Below are positions 7,665 to 64,000 of a DNA stretch of 64,000 nt, piece after piece. The stretch lies in assembly GCA_029258915.1 (NCBI GenBank), contig JAPDJU010000005.1, positions 265,797 to 329,796 on the forward strand, written 5' to 3'. The translations under genes were made by a program, and so were the position numbers. The stretch is from Thermoproteota archaeon. Its GTDB lineage: Archaea; Thermoproteota; Thermoprotei_A; EX4484-217-1. The notes beneath the pieces were generated by a model. It worked only from the letters and a program-made list of their open reading frames with translations. It was not told where the DNA came from and made no database searches. Each line of letters starts with the position of its first letter. The stretch's first letter is position 1.

Positions 7665-8717
7665 TTGAACGCATTGGCTGGGTTAAAAGAATACCTAGTT
7701 AGAAGAGCAGTTACATTCATCCCCACACTATTAGGTGTGACACTAATAGTATTTATAATTGCAAACATTATTCCAGCAGATCCTGCAAGAGCATGGGCTG
7801 GAGGTGAGAGAGCAAGACCTGAAATTGTTGCAAGAATTAGAAAGCAATACCATCTTGATGATCCATGGTATATACAATACGTTTTCGTAATGAAGGGTAT
7901 TATAAGTTACTTTACTTCACCTACGCATGAGGGAGCAATAATTGATCCCTTAACTAGCAAGTATGTTTTTGACAATATTTTTCTAAGATTTCCTACAACA
8001 TTTCAGCTAGCCTTATTCGCAGAAATATTTATCCTAACTATAGGTATTCCTTTAGGCTTAATTTCAGCTTTAAAAAGAAATACTTGGATCGATACATTTG
8101 TAAGGTTTTTCGCCTTAACAGGAACGTCAATGCCTATTTTCTGGTTTGGCTACTTAATGATGTGGGTTTTCTTCTCCCATCTTCGATGGACAAGTTTAGC
8201 AGGAGTACCTTCACCTAGATGCTATGAATCAGGCACATGTCCTATAACGACATATATTCCAATATTTGACGCTTTAATAGCAGGCGAATATGATATAGTT
8301 ATGCAAGTAATTAGAAGGTTCTGGCTTCCCGGGTTTGTTTTAGGGTTTAGAGCTGCTGGTGTTTTAGCTAGGATAGTTAGGAACTCGTTCTTAGATGCTT
8401 TAAGCTCGGATTTCATAGAATTCGCTAAAGCTAAAGGGCTACCTAAAAGATGGATATGGAAACATGCTTTGAAAAACGCTTTTGTTCCTGTAATAACTGT
8501 CATAGGATTGCAATTCGGTGGATTATTAGGAGGCGCTGTAATAACAGAAACAGTCTTTGGGCTTCCAGGTATTGGAAGGTATGCTGTTAATTCAATAAAC
8601 TACTTAAACATGCCAGCAGTAATCGGTGTAACATTAATGTTTGCATTTATGTATATGCTGGTTAATCTTATGGTTGATATAGTCTATTCAGCTTTAGATC
8701 CAAGAATAAGATATTAA
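7665..8717 (+). CDS. DppB/OppB-like ABC permease of a second transporter set.
   Basis: TTG start. The N-terminus (LKEYLVRRAVTFIPTLLGVTLIVF) and C-terminus (..DPRIRY) are typical of the family. Confidence 0.85.
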   Translation: MNALAGLKEYLVRRAVTFIPTLLGVTLIVFIIANIIPADPARAWAGGERARPEIVARIRKQYHLDDPWYIQYVFVMKGIISYFTSPTHEGAIIDPLTSKYVFDNIFLRFPTTFQLALFAEIFILTIGIPLGLISALKRNTWIDTFVRFFALTGTSMPIFWFGYLMMWVFFSHLRWTSLAGVPSPRCYESGTCPITTYIPIFDALIAGEYDIVMQVIRRFWLPGFVLGFRAAGVLARIVRNSFLDALSSDFIEFAKAKGLPKRWIWKHALKNAFVPVITVIGLQFGGLLGGAVITETVFGLPGIGRYAVNSINYLNMPAVIGVTLMFAFMYMLVNLMVDIVYSALDPRIRY

Positions 8718-8728
8718 GGTGAAAGCAG

Positions 8729-9895
8729 GTGACTCTTGTTTCTGAGGAAGTATATGAGAAGAAAATCCTTGACAAAGTAATTGACAGGCTTGTAGATGGC
8801 GTTGCAAAGGTAATAGATAAGTTCAAACCAGGATGGTCCGTAAAGAATAGATCTAAAATAGATGAATGGAAGTTAATGTTTTATGCTTTTAATAGGTCTC
8901 CACCAGGCTTAATAGGTGCAGCTTTAATACTAGGTTTCATAGCAATAGGTATTTTTGGACCGTATTTCGCACCTTACAGCTATAGGCTGTTCTTATTCAT
9001 AGAGCATGAAGAAACGTATCTTGTCCCACCTGGATCGACCATAGTATCTAAGGGAGAAACGTTTTATTTTCCACTAGGAACGGATAAGTATGGTAGAGAT
9101 TTGTTAAGCTTAATATTATATGGTGCAAGGGTTTCATTGGTTGTTTCAATGATAGTTATAGCTTTAGGTGTGCCTTTAGGCATAGTTTTAGGTTTAGTAG
9201 CGGGATATTTTGGAGGAAAAATAGATGAAATAATAATGAGAATTACAGATACATTCCTAGCATTTCCCGCTTTAATTTTGGCTATTGCTTTTGCAGCTGT
9301 TTTACCTGAAAGGCTAAGACCTATGATAATATATAATGAGCAGTTGAAAACATTGTTATCAATATTCTTTGCTGCCGACCCTAGGGATGCAGCTAATTTT
9401 GCACCAATACTTTCAGTTATACTTGCAATAATTATCGTTTGGTGGCCTGGCTATACTCGAATAATTAGAGGAAGTGTACTTAGTGTTAGAGAAAACCTTT
9501 ACGTTGAAGCAGCTAGAGCATTAGGTGTAAGTACATGGAAGATATTAACTAAACATATCCTGCCAAACGTTATTTCACCAGTATTGGTTCTCATAACTCT
9601 TGATGTTGGTGCAGTTATCCTTGTTGAAGCAGGCTTAAGCTTTTTAGGTCTTGGAGCTCAAGACCCTATGATAGACTGGGGTAAAATAGTTTTCGATGGA
9701 GCTCAATACTTCCCAGATAGATGGTGGCTGGTACTTTTCCCTGGGCTTGCAACATTCTTAGCAGTTTTAGGTTGGAACCTTGTAGGTGACACTTTAAGGG
9801 ACGTATTAGACCCGAAAACTAGGAGGAGCATAGAATTTAAAGTTAAAAAGAAAAAGCTGGCTGCAACATCAGAAGATGGAGGAGCTAGTCAATGA
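8729..9895 (+). CDS. DppC/OppC-like ABC permease of the second set.
   Basis: GTG start. Transmembrane-rich, with a C-terminus of ..LRDVLDPKTRR. It overlaps the next gene by 4 nt. Confidence 0.85.
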   Translation: MTLVSEEVYEKKILDKVIDRLVDGVAKVIDKFKPGWSVKNRSKIDEWKLMFYAFNRSPPGLIGAALILGFIAIGIFGPYFAPYSYRLFLFIEHEETYLVPPGSTIVSKGETFYFPLGTDKYGRDLLSLILYGARVSLVVSMIVIALGVPLGIVLGLVAGYFGGKIDEIIMRITDTFLAFPALILAIAFAAVLPERLRPMIIYNEQLKTLLSIFFAADPRDAANFAPILSVILAIIIVWWPGYTRIIRGSVLSVRENLYVEAARALGVSTWKILTKHILPNVISPVLVLITLDVGAVILVEAGLSFLGLGAQDPMIDWGKIVFDGAQYFPDRWWLVLFPGLATFLAVLGWNLVGDTLRDVLDPKTRRSIEFKVKKKKLAATSEDGGASQ

Positions 9896-10884
9896 CAATA
9901 TTTCCAACTAAAAAGGTAATTGAAGTTAAAGATTTGCACGTACACTTTTACACGTATGCTGGCGTGGTTAAAGCAATCTCCGGCGTATCCTTCGAAATTT
10001 ATGAGGGAGAAACTTTCTGCCTCGTTGGCGAAACCGGTTGCGGTAAAAGCGTAACTTCAAGAGCCCTAACCAGGCTGATAGAATCTCCAGGTAGAATAGT
10101 GAAAGGACGAATAATATTTTACAGAGACAGCGGCCCAGTAGATATCATGACTTTAAGCGAAGAAGAATTAAGGGAAATTAGGGGTAGGGAAATAGCATAC
10201 ATATTTCAAGATCCTACAGCAGCCTTAGATCCCCTTTATACTGTCGGTTATCAAATAGCTGAAACCATGGTTGCCCACAGAACTGCTGACTGGAGAGAAG
10301 CATTTAGAAAAGCAATAAACATACTTAAATCAGTGATAATGCCCGATCCTGAAAGGAGGGTTAAAAATTATCCTCATGAACTCTCAGGAGGCATGAGGCA
10401 AAGAGTAGTTATTGGTGTCTCACTTTCAAACAGACCTAAGCTTTTAATAGCTGATGAGCCTACAACAAACCTTGATGTAACAATTCAAGCACAAATACTT
10501 GATCTACTAAGAAAGCTAAAGAAAAATGAGCAAATGACACTTCTCCTTATAACCCACAATATGGGTGTTGTCGCTGAAATGTGTACTAGAGTAGCAGTAA
10601 TGTATGCAGGTAAAATTGTTGAATTAGGCCCTGTAATAGATGTGTTTAAGGATCCTAGGCACCCATACACTAGGGGTCTTCTTAGAGCAGTACCTAACCC
10701 CCTAGGGAAAGTGGAAAGACTAGAATCGATTCCTGGGACTGTTCCAAACTTAATTTATCCTCCGCCGGGTTGTAGATTCCATCCAAGATGCCCATATATG
10801 ATGGAAGTTTGTAAAAGTAAGGAACCGCCCATGGTTGATTTAGGTGAAGGCCGTAAAGTAGCTTGCTGGTTATATGTAAAATAG
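9892..10884 (+). CDS. ABC ATPase of the second set, DppD-like.
   Basis: GETGCGKS Walker A, LSGGMRQRV signature, ADEPTTNLD Walker B, and a C-terminal CRFHPRCP motif. Confidence 0.9.
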   Translation: MTIFPTKKVIEVKDLHVHFYTYAGVVKAISGVSFEIYEGETFCLVGETGCGKSVTSRALTRLIESPGRIVKGRIIFYRDSGPVDIMTLSEEELREIRGREIAYIFQDPTAALDPLYTVGYQIAETMVAHRTADWREAFRKAINILKSVIMPDPERRVKNYPHELSGGMRQRVVIGVSLSNRPKLLIADEPTTNLDVTIQAQILDLLRKLKKNEQMTLLLITHNMGVVAEMCTRVAVMYAGKIVELGPVIDVFKDPRHPYTRGLLRAVPNPLGKVERLESIPGTVPNLIYPPPGCRFHPRCPYMMEVCKSKEPPMVDLGEGRKVACWLYVK

Positions 10885-11865
10885 GTGGAACATATGAGTG
10901 AAACATTGATTAAAGTGGTAAATCTAAAGAAGTATTTTCCAATCAGAGGTATTTTCTTTACAAAAGCACGTGTCAAAGCTGTTGATGGCGTGACATTTGA
11001 TATTAGACGAGGAGAAACCTTAGGTTTAGTAGGTGAGTCTGGGTGTGGTAAAACAACCACAGGAAGACTTATCTTAAGGCTTTTAAAACCAACAGCAGGT
11101 CACGTATATTTTGAAGGTAAAGATGTTTTTAAATTAAAAGGAGAAGAACTTAAAAAATTTAGAAAAAGCGCCCAAATAATACTTCAAGACCCATATACTT
11201 CGCTTAATCCTCGAATGACAGTTTTTGAAATAATAAACGAAGCATTAGAAGTACATAAGATGAAAATCTCAGATAAGGAAGAATTTATAGTTAATTGGCT
11301 TAGAAAGGTAGGTTTAGAAAAACACCACCTATACAGGTATCCTCACGAATTTAGCGGGGGTCAGAGGCAAAGAATAGCTATTGTTAGAGCCTTGGTCATA
11401 AATCCAAAATTTGTAATTTTAGACGAACCTACATCTGCACTCGATGTCTCCGTTCAAGCACAAATATTGAACATGCTAAAAGATTTCCAAAGAGAAATGA
11501 GCTTAACATACCTATTTATATCGCATGATTTAGGTATTGTAAAATATATGAGTACGAGAATTGCGGTAATGTATTTAGGTAAAATAGTTGAACTAGCACC
11601 AGCCGACGAACTATTTGAAAAACCACAGCACCCATACTCCCAAATGTTACTGGCATCTATACCTATACCGGATCCAGAATACGCTTTGAAGAAACCTAAA
11701 GTAAGAGTTTATGGGGAGCCTCCAAGCCCTATAAATCCACCGCCAGGCTGTAGATTCCATCCAAGATGCGAACATGTCATGGAGATATGTAGTAAGGAGG
11801 AACCACCATTCATTGAAGTTGAAAGAGACCACTATGTTGCATGCTGGCTTTACGCTAAACGTTAG
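10885..11865 (+). CDS. ABC ATPase of the second set, DppF-like.
   Basis: GESGCGKTT Walker A, FSGGQRQRI signature, LDEPTSALD Walker B, and a C-terminal CRFHPRC motif. Confidence 0.9.
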   Translation: MEHMSETLIKVVNLKKYFPIRGIFFTKARVKAVDGVTFDIRRGETLGLVGESGCGKTTTGRLILRLLKPTAGHVYFEGKDVFKLKGEELKKFRKSAQIILQDPYTSLNPRMTVFEIINEALEVHKMKISDKEEFIVNWLRKVGLEKHHLYRYPHEFSGGQRQRIAIVRALVINPKFVILDEPTSALDVSVQAQILNMLKDFQREMSLTYLFISHDLGIVKYMSTRIAVMYLGKIVELAPADELFEKPQHPYSQMLLASIPIPDPEYALKKPKVRVYGEPPSPINPPPGCRFHPRCEHVMEICSKEEPPFIEVERDHYVACWLYAKR

Positions 11866-43203: not shown

Positions 43204-43602
43204 TTGGGTAGAGAAGTAAAAATTAAAGATCTAAAGCCCGGAATGGACAATATATCAATAAAAGTAAGAATTCTTGAAGCAGGTAAACCTAAAGTTATTC
43301 AAACAAGAAAAGGTTCAAGGATAATATCAGAAGCCCTTGTTGGTGACGAAACAGGAAGAACAAGAATGACATTATGGGGTAAGAAAGCAGGAAGCATAAA
43401 AGCGGGAGAAGTAATAAGGCTTAGAAAAGCATTCGTAACAGTGTTTAGAGGAGTAGCTCAATTAAACATAGGTAAGCAAGGAGAAATAGTAAAGCTTGAT
43501 GACAGCGAAGTTGTAGCTTCGAACAAAATCCCAGAAACATCACCTAAAGTAGAATCTCATAGAAGACCATACAGAAGAACTTCGTTCAGAAAATCATGGT
43601 AA
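43204..43602 (+). CDS. ssb: Crenarchaeal single-stranded DNA-binding protein (single OB fold plus flexible C-terminal tail).
   Basis: Collinear with Sulfolobus SSB (..KDLKPGMDNISIKVRILEA..ISEALVGDETGRTRMTLWGKKAGSIK..). TTG start about 12 nt downstream of the TATA box, so probably leaderless. Confidence 0.85.
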   Translation: MGREVKIKDLKPGMDNISIKVRILEAGKPKVIQTRKGSRIISEALVGDETGRTRMTLWGKKAGSIKAGEVIRLRKAFVTVFRGVAQLNIGKQGEIVKLDDSEVVASNKIPETSPKVESHRRPYRRTSFRKSW

Positions 43603-43623
43603 AGAAATATGAGGGAATAATTT

Positions 43624-43893
43624 ATGGAAAAAGAGATATTAGACAAAAAACCGATAAGAAAAGGTACACCAATAGGAAAAAGCGACGAAGGCTATGTTGT
43701 TAGCCTAGATGAAAATCACGCTTACACGTTAAATCCGGCAGCATTTTACATATGGCTTCTATGTAGCGGAGAATTAACAGTAAATGAGATCGTAGATAAA
43801 ATCGCAGAAGCCACAGGCATCAAGAGAACAGAACTCGAAGAACCCGTTAACTACATTGTAAAAGAGTTACTAAGAGTAAAACTCATAGAGTAA
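43624..43893 (+). CDS. PqqD-like small protein, a candidate RiPP recognition element or peptide chaperone.
   Basis: ..HAYTLNPAAFYIWLLCSGELTVNEIVDKIAE.. matches the PqqD (PF05402) pattern. Confidence 0.5.
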   Translation: MEKEILDKKPIRKGTPIGKSDEGYVVSLDENHAYTLNPAAFYIWLLCSGELTVNEIVDKIAEATGIKRTELEEPVNYIVKELLRVKLIE

Positions 43894-44030
43894 AAACCTA
43901 TACGTAACAAAAACTTAACACAACATTTTTTCTTTATATTTTCCTTAGCTCGTTTCGAGATGTCCCTAGCAGTTATATAAAATCTTTAACCTAATATATT
44001 TCTGACCTTGTAGATAATGTTGTGTAGTTA

Positions 44031-44687
44031 ATGAGGGAAGTTTTCATGAGGAAACCTATTAGGCTAGGTATTCCGGTTTTAGACGAATATGTAGGTAGTT
44101 TAAAACCTGGAACAACAATACTTATCGAAGGTCTACCAGAAACTTATCCCTACCTATTACTTCACAGAATAGGGTATCAAGTTTCTAGAGCAGGAGTAAA
44201 AGTAACGTACATAATTTGGGGAGATAATGCAGAAGATTATAGAGAGGCAGCAATTAATGTAGGACTAGATGTACCAACTCTTGAAAGAGAACATCTATGG
44301 AAATATTTTTCGATAATGTCTTTAGATGAGTTATGGAATATTATGTTAAAGGAAGCAGCTAAATCGTTGATCCTAATAGATGCCACATCAATATCCTTGG
44401 AAATACCTCTAAAGGAAGCCATGGAATTAAGGAACATGGCTAAAAAGTGGGGTACAATCACAGTTATATCTATAACACCTCCTGTAATAGGAGAGAAAAC
44501 GCTTCTCTTACTGGAGAAACTGTTTGATATAATATTAGAATTACAAGTGAAGATAATTAGAGATGAAGTAAGGTATCTAATGAATATTAAGAAACACAAG
44601 AAAATGCCTAAAAAAGGTCTTATAATAACCTACTCTATAGGGGCACAAGGGATTAAGGTGGAACAATTAAGAAAAATACCGTACTAA
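44031..44687 (+). CDS. KaiC/RecA-fold FlaH-like protein with a degenerate Walker A.
   Basis: GIPVLDEYVGSLKPGTTILIEGLPETYPY aligns to the KaiC/FlaH pattern G..LD..LGGG.P.G...LI.G.PGTGKT, with the P-loop residues replaced. Confidence 0.55.
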   Translation: MREVFMRKPIRLGIPVLDEYVGSLKPGTTILIEGLPETYPYLLLHRIGYQVSRAGVKVTYIIWGDNAEDYREAAINVGLDVPTLEREHLWKYFSIMSLDELWNIMLKEAAKSLILIDATSISLEIPLKEAMELRNMAKKWGTITVISITPPVIGEKTLLLLEKLFDIILELQVKIIRDEVRYLMNIKKHKKMPKKGLIITYSIGAQGIKVEQLRKIPY

Positions 44688-44806
44688 AACGCAACAAAGC
44701 ATCTGAATAAGAAGTCAAGGAGCATGTATGACAGCAAAATACACTTAAAGCGAACAATCTTAAATATACTTAGAATACTAGAATAAGAATATTTTAGGGA
44801 AACTGA

Positions 44807-46405
44807 ATGGATATTTTAGAGAAAATAAGAAGGAAACTAAACAATAATGTAAATCCTGGTTTGGCGAAGGGAAAAGTTGCAGCAAAAACTGTAGCCATCA
44901 AAGCAAAAAAGGAACTGCCTAAAAAAAGAACCTTGGTTAAAAATATATATGCTGTAAATCCGCCATACGCTTATGTAATGATATATATTGATGAAAAAGG
45001 TATCTTACGATACAATGTATTAGAACCCTATCTTGTACCCGAAGAGAAAATATACTATAAAGAGATGAAGGAGCTAATACTTGAAGAAGCAAAGATACCT
45101 ATTGCAGCATTAAGAGATTATAGAATGGCCTCAGAGGTTCTCTCTAAAACAATAGATGAAATAGTAAGGAGGTATAGAATAAGACTTCAAAAGGAATCTA
45201 TAGACAAAATTAAGTATTATATAGTGAGAGACCTTGTAGGTTACGGTAAAATAGATCCTATGTATAGAGATCCTTATGTTGAAGATATAGTTTGTGATGG
45301 CCATAATATACATGTTTATGTTTACCATAGAGACTTTGAGTGGATGCCAACAAATGTAATTTTTGAAAGCCCTGATGAGCTTGAAAGCTTTATTAGGAAA
45401 TTAGCTTTTAGAGCAGGTCAAAGCATTACCTATGCCAGGCCTATAGTTGAAGGACCATTACCTCCTGAAGGTTTTAGAGTGCATTTAACATTAAAAGAGG
45501 TATCTCGTAGAGGAAGCACTTTTACCATTAGAAAATATAGCATAGAGCCTTACACTGTAATTAATCTGTTAAAGTTTAATACATTAAGTACAGACACCGC
45601 TGCCTACCTATGGTTATTAATAGATAACGTAATGAGCTTCATGGTTCTCGGCCCCATGGCCTCCGGTAAAACAACATTACTTAACGCTGTAGCTATGATG
45701 ATTAGGCCTGAAGCAAAAATAGTTACCATAGAGGAAACGCCCGAACTAAGGCTCCCTCATGAAAATTGGGTTCCCATGACTGTAAGGCCTAGTTTCGAAC
45801 CTGGAGTTGAAGATATAACACTTTTTGAGCTTTTAAAGAGCGCATTAAGGCAAAGACCTGAATACATTATTGTAGGTGAAATTAGAGGTAAAGAAGCATA
45901 TACGTTTTTCCAAGCAATGGCAGTAGGGCATGGAGGATTAACGACTATACATGGTGAAAGCGTTCAAGCAGTAATTTCAAGGTTAGAGAACGAGCCCATG
46001 AATATACCTAGAGTTTTAATACCTTTAGTTAAAGCATTCGTGCATATGGGTAGGGTTAAAGTTAGAGGAGAAATTATGAGAAGAGTATTAAGAGTTGTTG
46101 AAACAGTAGGCATAGACACAGCTACAAAGGAAGTTATATTAAACGAAGTTTACGTATGGGACCCCGTAACAGATACATGGAAATTCTCTGGGAGAAGCTA
46201 CGCTTTCGAATACATAGCTACAAACAGAGGTTTACCTTTAAGTGAAATATATAAAGACTTTGAAAGAAGGAGAATAGTGTTAGAATGGATGAAACAGAAG
46301 AACATGGTTAAATTCTCCGAAGTAGCCGATATACTGAGAAAATACTATCAAGACCCTGAAGAAACCTATAGACATGCAGAATCCGAATTAAGGAGGATAG
46401 CGTAA
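44807..46405 (+). CDS. FlaI/TadA/VirB11-family secretion ATPase of a type-IV-filament system.
   Basis: Walker A (GPMASGKTT), Asp box, Walker B (IIVGEIRG), His box (TIHGES). Confidence 0.85.
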   Translation: MDILEKIRRKLNNNVNPGLAKGKVAAKTVAIKAKKELPKKRTLVKNIYAVNPPYAYVMIYIDEKGILRYNVLEPYLVPEEKIYYKEMKELILEEAKIPIAALRDYRMASEVLSKTIDEIVRRYRIRLQKESIDKIKYYIVRDLVGYGKIDPMYRDPYVEDIVCDGHNIHVYVYHRDFEWMPTNVIFESPDELESFIRKLAFRAGQSITYARPIVEGPLPPEGFRVHLTLKEVSRRGSTFTIRKYSIEPYTVINLLKFNTLSTDTAAYLWLLIDNVMSFMVLGPMASGKTTLLNAVAMMIRPEAKIVTIEETPELRLPHENWVPMTVRPSFEPGVEDITLFELLKSALRQRPEYIIVGEIRGKEAYTFFQAMAVGHGGLTTIHGESVQAVISRLENEPMNIPRVLIPLVKAFVHMGRVKVRGEIMRRVLRVVETVGIDTATKEVILNEVYVWDPVTDTWKFSGRSYAFEYIATNRGLPLSEIYKDFERRRIVLEWMKQKNMVKFSEVADILRKYYQDPEETYRHAESELRRIA

Positions 46406-46406
46406 G

Positions 46407-47291
46407 TTGGGCATTTCGCATGTAGCATACAGAATGTTTAAAGGAAAAGGAATATACAATTTCCTCTTAAAAACCTTAAGCTGGTTAGACCCATACTTAA
46501 TGTACTCAGGTTTTAACATACCTTTACGTAGATATGTAGCTACTTTAATTTTAATTACACTAATCACTTTCTCTGCATCATTACCATTAACTTACATTTT
46601 GCATACCTTATTCTTTGAAACAAGTGTAGTATTTAATTTAGCAGCCTCAATCATACTCTCCTTAATGGTATCAGCTATAATTCTAAGTCTTTTTGTATAC
46701 ATACCTGTTTTTAAAGCTAAAAGTAGACTTGAACTCTTAGAAACAAGGCTTCCCTACATAGTTTCATACATGACCATCTTATCCTATGCAGGAAGAAATG
46801 TAGAGTCCATAATTGCTAAACTTACTGAAAAAGGGAAACTATTTGGTATAGAAGAACCAGCTACAAGAATGCTTAGAAAAATTTTTATCTTAGGCCAAGA
46901 TACGGCTAAAATGCTTATGGATGAGGCTAGAAAAAACCCTTCAATAGTTTATTCATCCCTCTTAGAAAGCTTAGCTGGAATTGTTGAAACAGGTAAGGGG
47001 TTAAGTGAATTTTTAGAATCCGAGTTTATGAATTTGCTAAGAAGTAGAGAAGCAAAAATTAAGGAAGCCATGAATTCTATGACAGTTTTGATGGAAATAT
47101 TCATCAGTCTAGTTATTGTCTTACCATTAGTCTTAACAATAATGTTATCTATTATGGCGTCTTTAGGAACTGTTGCATTACCTATAGATCCACTTTTACT
47201 TTTATTTCTAATGTATTTCATAATAGCTCCATCGATAGCTACAATGATAGTTTTAATGATAGATTCCTTAATATCAAAGATTTCGGGATAG
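46407..47291 (+). CDS. Half-size FlaJ/TadB-like (T2SS-F fold) polytopic membrane protein.
   Basis: Three or four transmembrane segments with a cytoplasmic helical domain. Immediately downstream of the ATPase gene. Confidence 0.55.
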   Translation: MGISHVAYRMFKGKGIYNFLLKTLSWLDPYLMYSGFNIPLRRYVATLILITLITFSASLPLTYILHTLFFETSVVFNLAASIILSLMVSAIILSLFVYIPVFKAKSRLELLETRLPYIVSYMTILSYAGRNVESIIAKLTEKGKLFGIEEPATRMLRKIFILGQDTAKMLMDEARKNPSIVYSSLLESLAGIVETGKGLSEFLESEFMNLLRSREAKIKEAMNSMTVLMEIFISLVIVLPLVLTIMLSIMASLGTVALPIDPLLLLFLMYFIIAPSIATMIVLMIDSLISKISG

Positions 47292-47294
47292 CAT

Positions 47295-48221
47295 ATGAGC
47301 AAGCACTTAGTAGTAAAAGTTATGAATAGAAATATCTTAACCTTGATACTGTCTGTCTTCTTAGCTACGCTCTTCTTAGTAATAAGTCTTGTAGTTTTAA
47401 AAATGGCTGATTTCACTAAAGCACTCATAATAGCTGGGCCTATACCTACATTGTTACCTTATGATATTAATTTCATAAACTTAATGGTTGCATTTGCAAT
47501 TATCTTACTTACTCCTTATCCTCTAATTAAATACTTGGAGCATAGGAGGAAGCGAAAAGTCGAATTACTAATGCCTGTTTTTCTTTACGATCTCGCAGGA
47601 CTCGTTAGAGCCGGTTATACTGTACCTAAAGCTCTTGAAATGGAAGCCGAAAAAGACCTGGGACCTTTAACAGACCTTATAAGAAAAGCAGTTACTAGAA
47701 TAACCTTAGGCGAAAGTGTTTCTAAGGCTCTAAACAAAGCATTTAAGGACCAAACCTTAATAACCAGAAGATTTATTGAAACAATAGCTGAGGCTCATGA
47801 AAGCGGAGGAAGAGCAGCCCAAGTACTTTCGGGAGCATCATCGCATGCAGCTAGGCTTGAGGCATTTGAGGAAGAAAAGAGAAGAAGTATGAAAGTTTAT
47901 GTTTCTATAATATACGTTTCAATAATAGTATTCATGGTTTCGGCTGCCTTTCTTCTATTCTTTAATACAGCACTTTATGGAACTATGAAGGAAGGCGGAG
48001 GAATATTCACCATGTTGCTTACGCCAGAGCAGTTGAGAGGGTTATTGTATTACGCTACATTACTTATATCTGCTCCTTCATGCTTTGTTATAGGTAAAAT
48101 AAGGTCAGGGACCATAGTGGAAGGCGCATTACATTTAGTTTTTATTTACATAGCGATAGCTATTTTCTATAATAGCATAGATGGCATAATTTCTATGCTT
48201 TTATCTCTTTTCTCTCTTTAA
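47295..48221 (+). CDS. Second half-size FlaJ/TadC-like membrane protein.
   Basis: Topology similar to the preceding gene. Together the pair equals one archaeal FlaJ. Confidence 0.55.
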   Translation: MSKHLVVKVMNRNILTLILSVFLATLFLVISLVVLKMADFTKALIIAGPIPTLLPYDINFINLMVAFAIILLTPYPLIKYLEHRRKRKVELLMPVFLYDLAGLVRAGYTVPKALEMEAEKDLGPLTDLIRKAVTRITLGESVSKALNKAFKDQTLITRRFIETIAEAHESGGRAAQVLSGASSHAARLEAFEEEKRRSMKVYVSIIYVSIIVFMVSAAFLLFFNTALYGTMKEGGGIFTMLLTPEQLRGLLYYATLLISAPSCFVIGKIRSGTIVEGALHLVFIYIAIAIFYNSIDGIISMLLSLFSL

Positions 48222-49203
48222 ACTTTTTAACAAGTGTGAGAATTTGATTAAGTATTTCAGTTATGGATTTACCGGAAACGAGATTAACACCTTGACTTGA
48301 GGCTACCTTTCTTATGCTCTCCGAGGAACTGTCAGTTACATAAATGTATTTAATATCTGGGAAATCCATGAACTTAGCTATATGAGCAAGAAGGTCCGTT
48401 ATTTGAAGTTCAGCTGATGCTATTGGTCTATAATCTACCCCTATTAACGATTGGTCTGCTTTAACCACAATGTCGAACCTATGATTTACGCCTGAAATAC
48501 CTTTTAAGGTAGCGTTCTTCTCTACTTGAAAACCTTTAGATGAAAGTGATAGAAGTATTAAATTTCTAATTAAAATACCTGATTTTAGCAGTTTAACGCC
48601 ATAATCCGTTGTTCTATACATGTAAACTGCTTTATACTTTGCTGTCAATATATTAAATTCCTTACCGCATTCCCTACATATGAAATGTATTTTTGGTCTA
48701 TCTGCTCTTCTACCACAGTCTATACATTCAAATATTTCACCTAAAACTCTATAGTCAACACCTTCTTCACGAAGGCTCACTTTACAGTTCGGACATATAA
48801 GCTGTTCTTCAGACTCCTTCTTAGGCTGGCGAAGAAATTTCAACTTAGTATCTACGAAACCACAGGTTACATGCTGTATTATTTCTGTCTTAATCATGTT
48901 TATTGAACCGCATGAAGGGCATTTAAACCTAGTACCTACATGGATTTTACCGCAATAAGGACATTCAATGACTCTCTCGGCTATTTTTTCCTCAACAAGC
49001 CCTAATTCTATGAGTTTCCTTATTTTCTCTTGCCACTCAGGAAACATTTTCATTTTAGGATATTCTATACCATGCTCTAACCTAATCTGAGGCGCAATTT
49101 CTCTTTCCTCAACCATTATTTCTAAAATTTTAAGTAGCGTGGGATCCCTAAGTAACGTTTCAGCAAGTACTAACTCCCTATTTTTCTCCAACACTGTGCT
49201 CAA
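48193..49203 (-). CDS. Multi-zinc-ribbon protein with an N-terminal wHTH-like region and a C-terminal restriction-endonuclease-like (Mrr_cat-like) domain.
   Basis: Four CxxC pairs (CPYCG/CPSCG/CPNC/CIDCG/CREC) and a C-terminal ..GFQVEKNATLKGISGVNHRFDIVVKAD.. region. Confidence 0.45.
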   Translation of the reverse strand: MSTVLEKNRELVLAETLLRDPTLLKILEIMVEEREIAPQIRLEHGIEYPKMKMFPEWQEKIRKLIELGLVEEKIAERVIECPYCGKIHVGTRFKCPSCGSINMIKTEIIQHVTCGFVDTKLKFLRQPKKESEEQLICPNCKVSLREEGVDYRVLGEIFECIDCGRRADRPKIHFICRECGKEFNILTAKYKAVYMYRTTDYGVKLLKSGILIRNLILLSLSSKGFQVEKNATLKGISGVNHRFDIVVKADQSLIGVDYRPIASAELQITDLLAHIAKFMDFPDIKYIYVTDSSSESIRKVASSQGVNLVSGKSITEILNQILTLVKKFKERKEIKA

Positions 49204-50385: not shown

Positions 50386-51111
50386 ATGGAGAAAAAATAT
50401 GTTCTTGTAAGGGTTAAAAAAGGTCTAGCTCATGGTTTACTAGGAAAATACTATGAAATATCATTGAAGAAGCCTCCGGAAAAACAGTTTTTAAAAAGAA
50501 ATCTCAGAGCAACAAGAATAGATCCCCAAATAAACTTTGTATGGTGGGATAAACCAGCACCGGAAGTCCCAGCAGAATTTTTTGCTGTTGAATGGTCAGG
50601 TTACTTGGTGGTTAAAAAAGCTGGCCTCTACAGATTTTACATTTTAACCGATGATGGAGCGAAATTATGGATAAACGATAAATTAATAATAGACGCATGG
50701 AAGGATCAAGCACCAACAGTGTATCATAGCGATGTATTAGCTTTAAGTGCTGGCTATCATAAAATAGAGCTGAGATTTTATAATAAATTCGTCTTTGGAG
50801 AAATAATGCTTGGATGGATAAGACCAGACGGTATAGCAGAAATAATACCTTCAGAAAACTATGCTATACCATTAGATAATAAAATCGTTATTAAAGGTTT
50901 ACCTGATAACTGTAAAGTTGAATTGTGGAGCGGCGGTAAGCTTTTAGAAGCAATAGTTAAGGGTAAGAAGGCAGAGTTGAATGCCAAAATAATATCTAAG
51001 CCCATAGACGGATACTTTAAGATATATGATAGTTCAGGGGCCTTGCTACTCGAAAGCCCTGTTATAAGAGATATATGGGGAGGAGATGTATTTCAAGTAG
51101 GTGAAGAATAA
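50386..51111 (+). CDS. PA14-domain protein with no signal peptide.
   Basis: ..YHSDVLALSAGYHKIELRFYN..GWIRPDG matches the PA14 beta-barrel pattern. Confidence 0.55.
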   Translation: MEKKYVLVRVKKGLAHGLLGKYYEISLKKPPEKQFLKRNLRATRIDPQINFVWWDKPAPEVPAEFFAVEWSGYLVVKKAGLYRFYILTDDGAKLWINDKLIIDAWKDQAPTVYHSDVLALSAGYHKIELRFYNKFVFGEIMLGWIRPDGIAEIIPSENYAIPLDNKIVIKGLPDNCKVELWSGGKLLEAIVKGKKAELNAKIISKPIDGYFKIYDSSGALLLESPVIRDIWGGDVFQVGEE

Positions 51112-51541: not shown

Positions 51542-52084
51542 ATGAAGCTAAAGATACTATTACTCATATCGCTATTAGCTCTAAGTCTAGCGGCGATCTC
51601 GCTTCTTACCTCTAGCTATATTACTCCATCAAATACAACATATACCCAAGAATACTATAAAACGCAAGAAAACATTTTGTCTAAGAATATTACATTTTAC
51701 ATTTACGGCTCCATAGGCTGTCCAGCATGTAAATCTGTAAAAGAACTCTTAGAGGAAAACTTTGACAAAGAAATTGTATTCTATGAACTTAGTGGTAATG
51801 AGGAACATGTTAAAAACTTCCATAGAATATATGAATTATTAGCTCAAGCAAAAGGAACGGGTCAAAACTTATACATTCCTCTCACAGGAGTGTTTATAAA
51901 TGATAGGCTTGCTTTTATCGTAATAGGTTTTCAGCCTCTAGATTTCTGGGAAAAAATACTGTTAAGTTCTCCAAAAGACTATATTGTGGTTTTCCATCCC
52001 GAAGATGGCAACACAGGAACTATTGTAATAGCTGATAGTGAAATAATACATTCATTAGAAAAATTATTTGCTAAAGAAGGGTAA
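51542..52084 (+). CDS. Secreted thioredoxin-fold protein with a CPAC active site.
   Basis: Sec-type signal peptide, then ..IYGSIGCPACKSV.. Confidence 0.6.
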   Translation: MKLKILLLISLLALSLAAISLLTSSYITPSNTTYTQEYYKTQENILSKNITFYIYGSIGCPACKSVKELLEENFDKEIVFYELSGNEEHVKNFHRIYELLAQAKGTGQNLYIPLTGVFINDRLAFIVIGFQPLDFWEKILLSSPKDYIVVFHPEDGNTGTIVIADSEIIHSLEKLFAKEG

Positions 52085-52092
52085 TTTGGCTT

Positions 52093-52737
52093 ATGAACAC
52101 CTATGCAACATTACATGTTTTAACACTGGTACTGTCCATGGCTATATTAGATTCTATAAACCCTTGTACATTCGCTATTTATACTTCTCTACTTATAATG
52201 GCTTCTACAATTCATGGTAAAAATCATAAGCAAGTTAAAATTGTAGGTTTATCATTCATCTTAGGGGTATTTGTAGCATACTATCTCTTAGGTTTAGGTC
52301 TATTAGCAGTTTTAGGTTTCCTTGATTTAATATCTAAGGTAATAGGATTAGCTGCTATGGCACTTGGTTTATACTTATTGCTGACCAATGTAAGCGGTAG
52401 AGGATGTAAGATTAAGGTTAGGCATTTAAAATATGTCCGCAGTGCAGTAAATCCCTATCTAGCATTTATAATAGGTGATTTTTTAGGCCTTACGTTACTC
52501 CCATGCAGTGGCGGTCCATACGTAGTTACACTAACGGTAATGGAGAAATTTAAACTACCATATTACTATGAAATTATTTTATTAACAATATACAACACAG
52601 TCTTCATAATGCCCTTAGTCCTTATTCTTACTGGAATATATCATGTGTGGAAAATAGTTAAAGGTGAGGAGAGAATTATAAAAATTATTGAAGGCTTAAT
52701 ACTAATAGGTCTAGGTACTTACATATTCTTCTTATAG
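52093..52737 (+). CDS. CcdA/DsbD-family transmembrane thiol-disulfide transporter.
   Basis: Cys in TM1 (NPCTFAIY) and TM4 (LPCSGGPY). Six transmembrane segments. Confidence 0.7.
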   Translation: MNTYATLHVLTLVLSMAILDSINPCTFAIYTSLLIMASTIHGKNHKQVKIVGLSFILGVFVAYYLLGLGLLAVLGFLDLISKVIGLAAMALGLYLLLTNVSGRGCKIKVRHLKYVRSAVNPYLAFIIGDFLGLTLLPCSGGPYVVTLTVMEKFKLPYYYEIILLTIYNTVFIMPLVLILTGIYHVWKIVKGEERIIKIIEGLILIGLGTYIFFL

Positions 52738-63046: not shown

Positions 63047-63604
63047 TTGGAAGACTTAGTGATAGCTGTAGATGTTTCATTGAGCATGAAAGCAAGCGAC
63101 TATATACCTAACAGAATGGAAGCAGCTAAAAGAGCAATATTATCACTAGTGACAGCAAAGCTTGAGAAAAACGTTGAAGACCGTATAGGAGTAGTAGCTT
63201 TCTATGGGCGCTCACTGCCAATAATAGATCTCACTAGGAACAAAGAATTATTGATATCAGTAATTAGGCAACTACGAGTGTTAGGAGAAGCAACCGCACC
63301 AGGGGATGGGCTTAAAGAAGCACTTTACATGCTGAGAGGAAGATGGCCGAAAATAGGTAAGGAAAGGGTGTTAATAGTTACTGATGGTACATTTAATGAA
63401 GGAATACCTTTAGATGTTGTAGCTGAATATGCTGCGAGAAGAAACGTTATTGTGGACTTCTTAACGCTAGGTAAGCTAACAAGCTACGATAGAACAATGA
63501 TTTCAAGAACCTTAAAACTAACTGGTGGAGTACATGAACATGCTGGAACAACATCGGAATTGATAAATAAAGCTATCAAATTAGGTATTAGAGAAATTCC
63601 ATAA
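63047..63604 (+). CDS. Small cytosolic von Willebrand factor A (vWA) domain protein.
   Basis: MIDAS motif (DVSLSM) ... VLIVTDGTFNEG. Confidence 0.7.
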   Translation: MEDLVIAVDVSLSMKASDYIPNRMEAAKRAILSLVTAKLEKNVEDRIGVVAFYGRSLPIIDLTRNKELLISVIRQLRVLGEATAPGDGLKEALYMLRGRWPKIGKERVLIVTDGTFNEGIPLDVVAEYAARRNVIVDFLTLGKLTSYDRTMISRTLKLTGGVHEHAGTTSELINKAIKLGIREIP

Positions 63605-64000
63605 TAGCCTTAGAAAGATCACCATATTTTATGTGCATAAAATATCCTTTAACAGTTCTAAGAATTTCTCTTATAATAGCTATGTCTGTTGGATAAAGCC
63701 TGCTAAAAGCAAAGAAATCAACTCTAACATTATGAAGTCTTAAGGAACTTATAGTGTACCTAGGATCGATACCTGTGTTAAAAGTTCCATCAGTAATAAC
63801 TAATATCCTCTTTTTAACACCATCCCTTGAAAGATCCTTAAGCATTCTATAAGCTTCCACAATACCATCCCCTAAAGCAGTACCGCTACCTAAAGGCCTT
63901 AAACTATCAATAGCCTTCAAAAGGTCCTTAATACTGTTCGTTAAATCTATTATCGGAGCAGAATATTCATAAAACCCGACAATACCTACTCTAGCAAGTA
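63588..64000 (-). CDS. Paralogous vWA domain protein. Only the 3' part is in the window; the 5' end runs off the edge.
   Basis: ..RILVITDGTFNTGIDP.. is collinear with the plus-strand vWA gene. The frame stays open to base 64000. The 3' ends of the two genes overlap by 17 nt. Confidence 0.6.
   Translation of the reverse strand, partial: LARVGIVGFYEYSAPIIDLTNSIKDLLKAIDSLRPLGSGTALGDGIVEAYRMLKDLSRDGVKKRILVITDGTFNTGIDPRYTISSLRLHNVRVDFFAFSRLYPTDIAIIREILRTVKGYFMHIKYGDLSKAIMEFL

What the first reader, a model, noticed from the sequence alone, without database searches (positions are those of the whole stretch)
43624..48221. Pilin-less type-IV-filament-like module: PqqD-like protein, pseudo-FlaH, FlaI-like ATPase and a split FlaJ (TadB/TadC-like pair)
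The FlaI-like ATPase (intact Walker A/B and His box) is followed by two membrane proteins of about 300 aa each, rather than the single FlaJ of about 500-550 aa that archaea usually have. This mimics the bacterial Tad TadB/TadC split. It is preceded by a KaiC/FlaH-like protein whose P-loop is replaced (EGLPETYPY instead of G.PGTGKT) and by a PqqD-like protein of 89 aa of the kind that binds leader peptides in RiPP pathways. No archaellin or pilin with a class III signal peptide, and no FlaX/G/F, is present in the flanks. The module therefore does not match the archaellum, Ups, Aap or bindosome loci as I know them. It may be a secretion or uptake machine whose filament subunits are encoded elsewhere. 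The PqqD-like protein would be an unexpected accessory, perhaps chaperoning a peptide substrate.
Basis: partly seen in the sequence, partly recalled or inferred. Interest (0 to 1): 0.6.

Follow-up and report, generated by a model that had tools for sequence, protein, structure and literature searches.

The report
Pilus assembly core; PqqD belongs to ssb
The region holds the membrane and ATPase core of an ordinary archaeal type IV pilus machine whose pilin genes lie elsewhere, and the small PqqD-like gene next to it is the conserved partner of the DNA-binding gene ssb, not part of the machine.

Summary

- **Core module.** Six of those nine have classical Pilin_N pilins next to the module. This is therefore a normal type IV pilus core. 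This uncultured Desulfurococcales-like lineage simply has no pilin gene in the locus or in the 64-kb window.
- **Split platform.** A split FlaJ/TadC is common in archaea (Makarova 2016), so it is not unusual.
- **FlaH-like protein.** It has a KaiC/FlaH fold, and its P-loop is replaced by a conserved PETYPY motif. Similar P-loop-less versions sit in three distant loci of the same pilus family. I found no description of this, so it is a modest new detail.
- **PqqD-like protein.** It is a genuine PqqD/RRE-fold protein but does not belong to the module. In 94 of 96 metagenomic loci it lies directly downstream of ssb, usually overlapping it by 1-4 nt, and what follows it varies freely. In the window, a T-run and a TATA-like box separate it from the pilus genes.

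Interest is low to moderate. The ssb-PqqD pair is the more novel by-product.

The parts
43204..43602 (+). Crenarchaeal-type SSB (one OB fold plus a basic tail). It is the first gene of the ssb-PqqD pair and is not part of the pilus module.
   Evidence: NCBIfam NF005050 gives 172.7 bits against a cut-off of 176, and Pfam Ssb-like_OB gives E=2e-11. An SSB ORF lies directly upstream of the PqqD-like gene in 94 of 96 metagenome loci.
43624..43893 (+). PqqD/RRE-fold protein of 89 aa. It is the second gene of the ssb operon and is not part of the pilus module.
   Evidence: Pfam PF05402 gives E=3e-12. The AF2 model has pLDDT 93 and matches the RRE fold. An SD-like GAGGG lies 8 nt upstream, and the gap to the ssb stop is 21 nt. 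Pairing with ssb is seen.
43925..43985 (+). Intergenic T-run (TTTTTTCTTTATATTTT, about 43925-43945) followed by a TATA-like box (TTATATAAAA, about 43974). I read this as the end of the ssb-PqqD transcript and the promoter of the FlaH-like gene.
   Evidence: Read directly from the sequence. This is inference from archaeal promoter and terminator rules. No transcript data were available.
44046..44687 (+). Pseudo-FlaH: a single-domain KaiC/FlaH-fold protein with Walker A replaced by G-L-P-E-T-Y-P-Y. An alternative start is at 44031.
   Evidence: Degenerate P-loops of the same type occur in L003 (GDPETYPH), L012 (GTPESMMPA) and L114 (GEPESYYY). dN/dS is 0.16-0.22.
44807..46405 (+). Type IV pilus assembly ATPase (T2SSE/VirB11 family, FlaI/GspE2-like) with all catalytic motifs intact.
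   Evidence: The best solved relatives are A. fulgidus GspE2 2OAP (330 bits) and S. acidocaldarius FlaI 4II7 (290 bits).
46407..47291 (+). TadC1: a platform protein with one T2SSF domain, equivalent to the N-terminal half of FlaJ/UpsF.
   Evidence: Pfam T2SSF gives E=5e-8. The NCBIfam ArlJ model matches at positions 3-243 of 555 and UpsF at 26-247 of 484. A hydropathy scan finds 4 hydrophobic segments.
47295..48221 (+). TadC2: a platform protein with one T2SSF domain, equivalent to the C-terminal half of UpsF.
   Evidence: Pfam T2SSF gives E=2e-16, and the NCBIfam UpsF model matches at positions 227-482 of 484. It is a weak paralogue of TadC1 (26% identity, E=1e-4).
48193..49203 (-). TackOD1 (arCOG06883) protein. 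It has an N-terminal region that looks wHTH-like (my reading of the sequence, not tested), five CxxC motifs plus one HxxC zinc-ribbon motif, and a C-terminal domain weakly similar to AF1548. It is convergent with TadC2 and overlaps it by 29 nt.
   Evidence: Pfam PF18551 gives E=2.5e-32. The Cys motifs are invariant in a 7-lineage alignment. The C-terminal domain matches AF1548 1Y88 at E=0.003. The gene is present next to the ATPase-TadC-TadC unit in 7 of 9 lineages.

Best explanation
Positions 44046-49203 encode the cytoplasmic and membrane core of an archaeal type IV pilus assembly machine of a family spread across Thermoproteota (TACK archaea).

- **Components.** The core is a hexameric FlaI/GspE2-like ATPase and a two-piece platform. 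TadC1 plus TadC2 together equal the two T2SSF repeats of a single FlaJ. There is also a FlaH-like protein that keeps the KaiC fold but has lost its nucleotide-binding loop. A convergently encoded TackOD1 zinc-ribbon protein completes the set.
- **Inferred roles.** The FlaH-like protein probably acts as a nucleotide-independent ring or adaptor under the ATPase. The TackOD1 protein is probably a regulator or nucleic-acid-binding accessory.
- **Pilins in trans.** The pilin substrates are of the Pilin_N type with a K-[GA]-[VI]-S-P-V-I-A signal. They are encoded next to the module in most related lineages. In this lineage they, and the prepilin peptidase, must be supplied from elsewhere in the genome.
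- **PqqD-like gene.** The PqqD-like gene at 43624-43893 is not part of the machine. It is the second gene of a widely conserved two-gene ssb-PqqD operon that happens to lie upstream here.
- **Shown versus inferred.** Shown: gene content, motifs, folds, synteny and purifying selection. Inferred: pilus assembly as the function, the role of the pseudo-FlaH, the role of TackOD1, and the transcript boundaries.
For: - **Domains and motifs:**
- **ATPase relatives:** the closest solved relatives are archaeal T4P/archaellum ATPases.
- **Conserved unit:** ATPase-TadC-TadC-TackOD1 is found in the window lineage, L003, L005 (Nezhaarchaeales), L012, L013 (Bathyarchaeota), L014 (Nitrososphaerota) and L115.
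- **Pilins in related loci:** Pilin_N pilins occur in L003, L005, L012, L013, L114 and L115.
- **Literature:**
  - One or two TadC genes, KaiC-family proteins and arCOG06883 have all been reported in archaeal T4P loci, with pilins often acting in trans (PMC4858521).
  - TackOD1 equals arCOG06883 (PMC5847659).
- **Selection:** all module genes show dN/dS of 0.05-0.22 against three related genomes (dS is saturated, so this is qualitative).
- **Pseudo-FlaH:** fold and motif are shown, and distant degenerate versions.
- **PqqD reassignment:**
Against: - No pilin, archaellin or prepilin peptidase is in the 64-kb window. Pilus assembly therefore rests on homology and on related loci.
- I could not read the rest of the genome. 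One search extended the view about 3 kb beyond the right end of the window. One search found no record for the left end.
- The ATPase was not placed in a proper phylogeny.
- The transcript structure is read from sequence only.
- Within the window's own lineage the whole neighbourhood is syntenic, from MgtC through to PA14. Only the distant loci are informative about module membership.
Confidence: 0.75

Rival explanations
1. The module is a pilin-independent secretion or uptake machine, and the PqqD-like protein chaperones a peptide substrate to the ATPase and platform.
For: The genes are adjacent and on the same strand. The PqqD/RRE fold is a peptide-binding fold. No pilin is in the window.
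Against: - The PqqD-like gene follows ssb in 94 of 96 loci, with unrelated downstream genes.
- It is absent from L003, L004, L005, L012-L014, L114 and L115.
- A T-run and a TATA-like box separate it from the FlaH-like gene.
- Related loci do carry pilins.
Confidence: 0.04
2. The module is a bindosome-like system. It would assemble or position solute-binding proteins that carry class III-like signal peptides, not a pilus fibre.
For: The only class-III-like N-terminus in the window belongs to an ABC-transporter solute-binding protein at 5304-7502. Its N-terminus reads MSLRKAISKTAAIAIAVILIVVVVAG followed by a Thr/Pro linker, and it hits SBP_bac_5 at E=2.5e-53. The ATPase hits the BasE model at 236 bits.
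Against: - The solute-binding protein is 37 kb away, so there is no linkage.
- The BasE score is far below the cut-off of 1000 and lower than the FlaI score.
- Related loci encode Pilin_N pilins, not binding proteins.
- Cleavage of that N-terminus by a prepilin peptidase is untested.
Confidence: 0.1
3. The module is a decaying remnant. It lost its pilin gene and is no longer functional.
For: The pilin gene found between the FlaH-like gene and the ATPase in L003 is missing here, leaving only a 119-nt gap. The FlaH-like protein has lost its P-loop.
Against: - All genes are intact in at least seven related genomes, at 42-89% amino-acid identity and with dN/dS of 0.05-0.22.
- The ATPase motifs are intact.
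- The degenerate P-loop motif is itself conserved: T-Y-P is invariant.
Confidence: 0.05
4. The module is a DNA uptake or exchange machine. It would be a T4P-like apparatus functionally tied to the neighbouring ssb and to a nucleic-acid-binding TackOD1 protein.
For: - ssb lies just upstream.
- In L003, PBP2 (PolB1-binding protein 2, E=3e-27) overlaps the start of the FlaH-like gene.
- The TackOD1 protein has zinc ribbons and a weak match to AF1548, which I recall as having a restriction-endonuclease-like fold.
- A second, different T4P locus lies two genes downstream of ssb-PqqD in L019/L072.
Against: - The ssb-PqqD pair sits next to many unrelated genes.
- Two T4P neighbours among 35 sequence clusters is about what chance gives. 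My rough estimate expects about 0.7.
- No ComEC- or Ced-like channel was seen in the locus.
- The candidate catalytic positions of the C-terminal domain are not conserved in the alignment.
Confidence: 0.05

Closest known systems
TACK (clade 4) archaeal type IV pilus loci with arCOG06883/TackOD1, as catalogued by Makarova, Koonin and Albers 2016 (PMC4858521) and Galperin 2018 (PMC5847659)
   Same: Both have a VirB11/T2SSE ATPase, a TadC-like platform encoded by two genes, a cysteine-rich double zinc-ribbon arCOG06883 protein in the locus, and a KaiC-family protein nearby. Pilins can act in trans in both.
   Different: arCOG06883 was reported mostly from Thaumarchaeota. Here it also occurs in Desulfurococcales-like, Nezhaarchaeales, Bathyarchaeota and other Thermoprotei loci. 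The KaiC-family partner here has no P-loop, and this lineage has no pilin gene in the locus.
Archaellum motor core FlaH-FlaI-FlaJ (ArlH/I/J)
   Same: The gene order is the same: a RecA/KaiC-fold protein, then the ATPase, then the platform. The ATPase and FlaH-like folds are homologous.
   Different: - All scores are below the orthologue cut-offs.
- The FlaH-like protein lacks Walker A, whereas FlaH binds ATP.
- The platform is split into two genes.
- No archaellin, FlaF, FlaG or FlaX is present.
- A. fulgidus GspE2 is a closer solved relative than FlaI.
Bacterial Tad/Flp pilus (TadA/CpaF, TadB, TadC)
   Same: Both pair an ATPase with two single-T2SSF-domain platform proteins.
   Different: The ATPase is much closer to archaeal proteins (2OAP at 330 bits) than to CpaF (about 150 bits). 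The TadA-family model TIGR03819 scores 170 bits against a cut-off of 373. The pilins in related loci are of the archaeal Pilin_N type.
PqqD / RiPP recognition element (RRE) proteins, such as PqqD and the lasso-peptide B1 proteins TbiB1 and 6JX3
   Same: The 89-aa protein belongs to the family by sequence (PF05402). It has the same fold of a three-stranded sheet plus three helices.
   Different: No radical-SAM enzyme, protease or other RiPP enzyme and no precursor peptide was seen next to it. Its conserved partner is ssb instead.

Membership tests
Archaeal type IV pilus assembly system | T2SSE/VirB11-family ATPase with Walker A, Asp box, Walker B and His box | tested here: met
   Pfam T2SSE gives E=2e-30. 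The motifs are at residues 282, 305, 353 and 374.
Archaeal type IV pilus assembly system | Polytopic platform protein(s) with two T2SSF domains in total | tested here: met
   There are two adjacent genes with one T2SSF domain each. They map to the N-half and C-half of FlaJ/UpsF.
Archaeal type IV pilus assembly system | Pilin(s) with a class III signal peptide in the locus or genome | tested here: inconclusive
   None was found in the 64-kb window. Pilins are present in 6 of 9 related loci. The rest of the genome could not be read.
Archaeal type IV pilus assembly system | Prepilin peptidase (PibD/FlaK, Peptidase_A24) | tested here: inconclusive
   A tblastn with the L014 A24 peptidase found nothing convincing in the window. 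An A24 gene does sit in the related locus L014.
TACK T4P loci with arCOG06883 | TackOD1 (PF18551) protein with 5 CxxC plus 1 HxxC encoded next to the ATPase and TadC genes | tested here: met
   PF18551 gives E=2.5e-32. The motifs are at residues 81, 95, 111, 137, 160 and 176. The adjacency is conserved in 7 of 9 lineages.
Archaellum (ArlH/I/J) | ATPase, ArlH and ArlJ reach the NCBIfam equivalog cut-offs | tested here: not met
   FlaI scores 404 against 550, ArlH 30.5 against 215, and ArlJ 58.9 against 550.
Archaellum (ArlH/I/J) | Archaellin plus FlaF/FlaG in the operon | tested here: not met
   No class III signal-peptide ORF lies near the locus.
Sulfolobales Ups / bindosome systems | Orthology to BasE or UpsF. 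No UpsE or AapE model appeared among the hits. | tested here: not met
   BasE scores 236 against 1000, and UpsF scores 36.8 and 45.5 against 400. The organism is not a Sulfolobales member.
FlaH/KaiC ATP-binding proteins | RecA/KaiC fold | tested here: met
   The AF2 model has pLDDT 83.6. TM is 0.82-0.84 to KaiC and to FlaH 4YDS.
FlaH/KaiC ATP-binding proteins | Walker A GxxxxGK[ST] | tested here: not met
   It is replaced by G-[LS]-P-E-T-Y-P-Y, with T-Y-P invariant in the 14-sequence alignment.
PqqD / RRE | Sequence match to PF05402 above the gathering score, and the RRE fold | tested here: met
   47.1 bits against 23.4. Foldseek matches TbiB1, PqqD and lasso B1 with TM 0.66-0.72.
PqqD / RRE | Genomic association with a RiPP-modifying enzyme and a precursor peptide | tested here: not met
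   The upstream partner is ssb in 94 of 96 loci. Ten sampled downstream neighbours are unrelated housekeeping genes.

The most novel reading that the evidence does not exclude
Two linked novelties survive the evidence.

1. **P-loop-less FlaH.** This pilus family has an ancient FlaH paralogue without a P-loop (motif G-x-P-E-[ST]-Y/M-x-x). It is found from Desulfurococcales-like archaea to Methanomethylicia. It may dock on the assembly ATPase without nucleotide, which would be a pseudo-enzyme solution to the step that FlaH performs with ATP in the archaellum.
2. **ssb-PqqD operon.** Crenarchaeal ssb forms a conserved two-gene operon with a PqqD/RRE-fold protein in Desulfurococcales, Fervidicoccales and Sulfolobaceae. 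An RRE fold binds an extended peptide as an added beta-strand. The partner may therefore recognise the flexible C-terminal tail of SSB, or hand SSB to client proteins. That would be a use of the RRE fold outside RiPP biosynthesis, in DNA metabolism.
Probability: 0.25. Interest if true: 0.55.

Novelty: new member of a known kind. Interest (0 to 1): 0.3.

Why it matters
The pilus module matters little on its own. It extends a catalogued family of TACK type IV pilus loci to another uncultured lineage, and it shows that pilin genes can be fully detached from the core. Two side results are more useful.

- **Pseudo-FlaH.** A conserved FlaH-like pseudo-ATPase gives a natural test of whether nucleotide binding by FlaH-type proteins is needed to dock on FlaI-type ATPases.
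- **ssb-PqqD operon.** This pair was seen in 94 of 96 loci falling into 35 sequence clusters. I found no description of it in the searchable literature. It points to an untested partner of the main crenarchaeal single-stranded-DNA-binding protein. It could be tested directly in Sulfolobus genetics if the cultured strains carry the pair. Only a Sulfolobaceae MAG was confirmed here.

Tried and rejected
- **Word-indexed homologue searches.** These found only 5 relatives of the PqqD-like protein and 14 of the FlaH-like protein. That was too shallow for context, so I used the exhaustive representative search instead (214 hits at E<=1e-3).
- **The search for related loci with PqqD alignments.** It failed twice because no conserved stretch was available. 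I replaced it with a hand-made degenerate DNA pattern.
- **Genome scan with the FlaH-like alignment.** It returned only 6 loci, all from the same lineage and fully syntenic. These say nothing about module membership.
- **Pilin search in the window.** Three methods found only a solute-binding protein.
- **Extending beyond the window.** The right end gained about 3 kb with VWA proteins and no pilin. The left end had no record.
- **Prepilin peptidase.** A tblastn found nothing.
- **Small gene upstream of the FlaH-like gene in L003.** I considered it as a PqqD counterpart and rejected that. It is PBP2, PolB1-binding protein 2.
- **T4P locus near ssb-PqqD in L019/L072.** I considered it as evidence of a real link and judged it compatible with chance.
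- **Literature searches linking PqqD and SSB in archaea.** They found nothing relevant.
- **Promoter and terminator scanner.** I did not use it, because it models bacterial sigma-70 signals.


Full report
**1. Observation**

- The 89-aa protein (43624-43893) is a PqqD-family member: Pfam PF05402 at E=3e-12, 47 bits against a cut-off of 23.4.
- The 218-aa protein is a weak but above-threshold KaiC-family member (PF06745, E=1e-6). Homologues show its true start is probably 44046, giving 213 aa.
- The 532-aa protein is a T2SSE ATPase with Walker A (GPMASGKT, residue 282), an Asp box, Walker B and a His box all intact.
- The two membrane proteins each carry one T2SSF domain. They align to the N-terminal and C-terminal halves of FlaJ/UpsF models and are weak paralogues of each other.
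It is a TackOD1 protein (PF18551, E=2.5e-32) that converges on TadC2 and overlaps it by 29 nt.

**2. Organism**

This is not Sulfolobales. The ATPase's nearest named relative (75% identity) is from 'Desulfurococcales archaeon ex4484_217_1'. All six genome loci that carry the FlaH-like protein come from uncultured Desulfurococcales or Thermoprotei MAGs. Orthology to the Ups, Aap or bindosome systems is therefore not expected and is not found. BasE scores 236 bits against 1000, UpsF scores 37 and 46 against 400, and FlaI scores 404 against 550. Among solved structures, A. fulgidus GspE2 (2OAP, 330 bits) is closer than S. acidocaldarius FlaI (290 bits) and far closer than bacterial CpaF (about 150 bits).

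**3. What is conserved around the ATPase**

Within the window's own lineage the entire neighbourhood is syntenic, from MgtC through SSB, PqqD, the FlaH-like gene, the ATPase, TadC1, TadC2, TackOD1, DUF488 and GNAT to PA14. Those loci therefore say nothing about which genes work together. The informative comparisons are the distant relatives, with 45-53% ATPase identity.

| Locus | Lineage | Gene order |
|---|---|---|
| L003 | unnamed (GCA_054042505.1) | RHH, PBP2, FlaH-like, pilin, ATPase, TadC, TadC, convergent TackOD1 |
| L005 | Nezhaarchaeales | two divergent pilins, ATPase, TadC, TadC, convergent TackOD1 |
| L012 | unnamed | FlaH-like, ATPase, TadC, TadC, convergent TackOD1, pilin |
| L013 | Bathyarchaeota | ATPase, TadC, TadC, three pilins, TackOD1 |
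| L014 | Nitrososphaerota | prepilin peptidase, two-domain KaiC with intact P-loop, ATPase, TadC, TadC, TackOD1 |
| L115 | Thermoprotei | pilin, ATPase, TadC, TadC, convergent TackOD1 |
| L114 | Methanomethylicia | two pilins, ATPase, TadC, TadC, convergent FlaH-like |
| L004 | Ignicoccus islandicus | ATPase, TadC, TadC only |

The conserved unit is therefore ATPase, two TadC genes and TackOD1, seen in 7 of 9 lineages. It is often accompanied by a FlaH/KaiC-like protein, and it has Pilin_N pilins in the locus in 6 of 9 lineages.

This matches the published census. That census reports TadC encoded by one or two genes, KaiC-family proteins linked to T4P loci, and arCOG06883 double zinc-ribbon proteins in thaumarchaeal T4P loci. 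It also reports pilins that often act in trans (PMC4858521). TackOD1 is arCOG06883 (PMC5847659). The split platform is therefore ordinary, and the module is a member of a known kind.

**4. Pilins**

No pilin or archaellin is present anywhere in the 64-kb window. I tested this in three ways:

- a class-III-signal scan over every possible start codon;
- a tblastn with three pilins from related loci;
- a lenient N-terminal-TM scan.

The only class-III-like N-terminus belongs to an ABC-transporter solute-binding protein 37 kb away, at 5304-7502. In L003 the pilin sits between the FlaH-like gene and the ATPase. Here that gap is only 119 nt, so the pilin gene has been lost or moved in this lineage.

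The module is nevertheless maintained. All its genes are intact in the related genomes, and dN/dS is 0.05-0.22 (dS is saturated, so this is only qualitative). The most economical reading is that pilins are supplied in trans.

**5. The FlaH-like protein**

A profile of the family hits FlaH (4WIA, E=6e-7) ahead of KaiC. The AF2 model (pLDDT 83.6) superimposes on KaiC domains and on FlaH 4YDS with TM 0.82-0.84.

The Walker A sequence is replaced by G-[LS]-P-E-T-Y-P-Y, and T-Y-P is invariant in the 14-sequence alignment. Degenerate loops of the same flavour occur in L003 (GDPETYPH), L012 (GTPESMMPA) and L114 (GEPESYYY). This is therefore an old, conserved P-loop-less variant and not a recent decay.

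The census paper does not mention inactive KaiC or FlaH proteins. By analogy with FlaH, whose interaction with FlaI is described as nucleotide-dependent (title cited), I infer a scaffold or adaptor role that no longer depends on nucleotide. This is inference only.

**6. The PqqD-like protein**

It is a true RRE-fold protein. The AF2 model has pLDDT 93, and the best matches are TbiB1 with its leader peptide, PqqD and lasso B1. Three lines of evidence remove it from the module.

- *Absent from distant loci.* No distant locus of the pilus family has it. In L003 the small gene in that position is PBP2, PolB1-binding protein 2, at E=3e-27.
- *Coupled to ssb in the window.* It starts 21 nt after the ssb stop and has an SD-like GAGGG. 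After its own stop come a T-run and a TATA-like box, ahead of the FlaH-like gene.
- *Paired with ssb across metagenomes.*
  - An exhaustive profile search found a family of about 214 representatives. Named members come from Desulfurococcaceae, Fervidicoccus fontis and Sulfolobaceae.
  - A degenerate DNA pattern built from the PqqD motif alone retrieved 99 metagenomic stretches. Of these, 96 encode the protein.
  - In 94 of the 96, an SSB gene lies immediately upstream on the same strand, most often overlapping by 4 nt or 1 nt. The two exceptions are cut by a contig end.
  - These loci fall into 35 clusters at 70% identity, with a median pairwise identity of 40%.
  - Their SSBs have the canonical linker, an RGG-rich stretch and often an acidic tail.
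  - Ten sampled downstream neighbours are unrelated housekeeping genes: MoeA, thiolase, carboxyl transferase, DHODH, a tRNA synthetase and others.
  - Only the window's own lineage has the pilus genes downstream.

A second lineage (L019/L072) has a different T4P locus two genes further on. My rough estimate is that this is about what chance would give.

**7. TackOD1**

The protein has three parts. The N-terminal region looks wHTH-like, which is my reading of the sequence and was not tested. The centre has five CxxC motifs and one HxxC motif, all invariant across seven lineages. The conserved C-terminal domain has a weak profile match to AF1548 (1Y88, E=0.003), but the candidate catalytic positions are not conserved. 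Its tail-to-tail position against TadC2, often with overlapping 3' ends, recurs in five lineages beyond the window. A regulatory or nucleic-acid-binding role is plausible but untested.

**8. Verdict**

The locus is a new member of a catalogued TACK type IV pilus family whose pilins are encoded elsewhere. The split platform is normal. The pseudo-FlaH is a modest new detail. The PqqD-like gene belongs with ssb. I found no description of the ssb-PqqD operon in the searchable literature. It is the most interesting thing to come out of this finding, but it lies outside the claimed module.

Noticed in passing
window 43204-43893 (+); loci L015-L113: There is a conserved two-gene ssb-PqqD/RRE operon. 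In 94 of 96 metagenomic loci found with a PqqD-only DNA pattern, an SSB gene lies directly upstream, mostly overlapping by 4 nt or 1 nt. The loci form 35 clusters at 70% identity, and their downstream genes are unrelated. Named members come from Desulfurococcaceae, Fervidicoccus and Sulfolobaceae. I found no paper describing this.
   Followed up: yes
It is convergent with TadC2 and overlaps it by 29 nt. The same tail-to-tail arrangement occurs in L002, L003, L005, L012 and L115. Its C-terminal domain weakly resembles AF1548 (1Y88).
   Followed up: partly
window 5304-7502 (+) and 7665-11865 (+): A family-5 solute-binding protein has a class-III-like N-terminus (MSLRKAISKTAAIAIAVILIVVVVAG) and a Thr/Pro-rich linker. 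Downstream ORFs look like the rest of an ABC transporter operon, but I did not annotate them. It is the only candidate prepilin-peptidase substrate in the window.
   Followed up: partly
window 63047-63920; L116 10841-11870: Two small VWA-domain proteins sit tail to tail, and a 657-aa unannotated protein follows just beyond the window. VWA proteins are known regulators or partners of archaeal T4P and archaellum systems, but these lie 15 kb from the module.
   Followed up: no
window 50386-51111 (+): A 241-aa PA14/GLEYA-domain protein has no recognisable signal peptide. It is conserved in synteny with the locus across the lineage. The PA14 domain is usually carbohydrate-binding and extracellular.
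   Followed up: no
window 51542-52737 (+): A secreted or anchored thioredoxin-like protein with a CPAC motif (180 aa) lies next to a 214-aa multi-pass membrane protein. They look like a disulfide-handling pair.
   Followed up: no
L002 11585-13492: In a related genome the DUF488 gene is split into two halves about 1.5 kb apart. A 47-aa ORF and a 368-aa SSO2105_N-domain protein lie between them, which suggests an insertion.
   Followed up: no
L019 8359-12093; L072 6053-9788: Another lineage has a different T4P locus two genes downstream of ssb-PqqD. It comprises a wHTH protein, a 152-aa class III pilin, a 442-aa ATPase and a single 494-aa TadC. I judged this probably coincidental.
   Followed up: partly
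L003 5422-6293: PBP2 (PolB1-binding protein 2) overlaps the start of the FlaH-like gene by 4 nt. So in both this lineage and the window's, a replication-protein gene lies just upstream of the pseudo-FlaH gene. This is unexplained.
   Followed up: no
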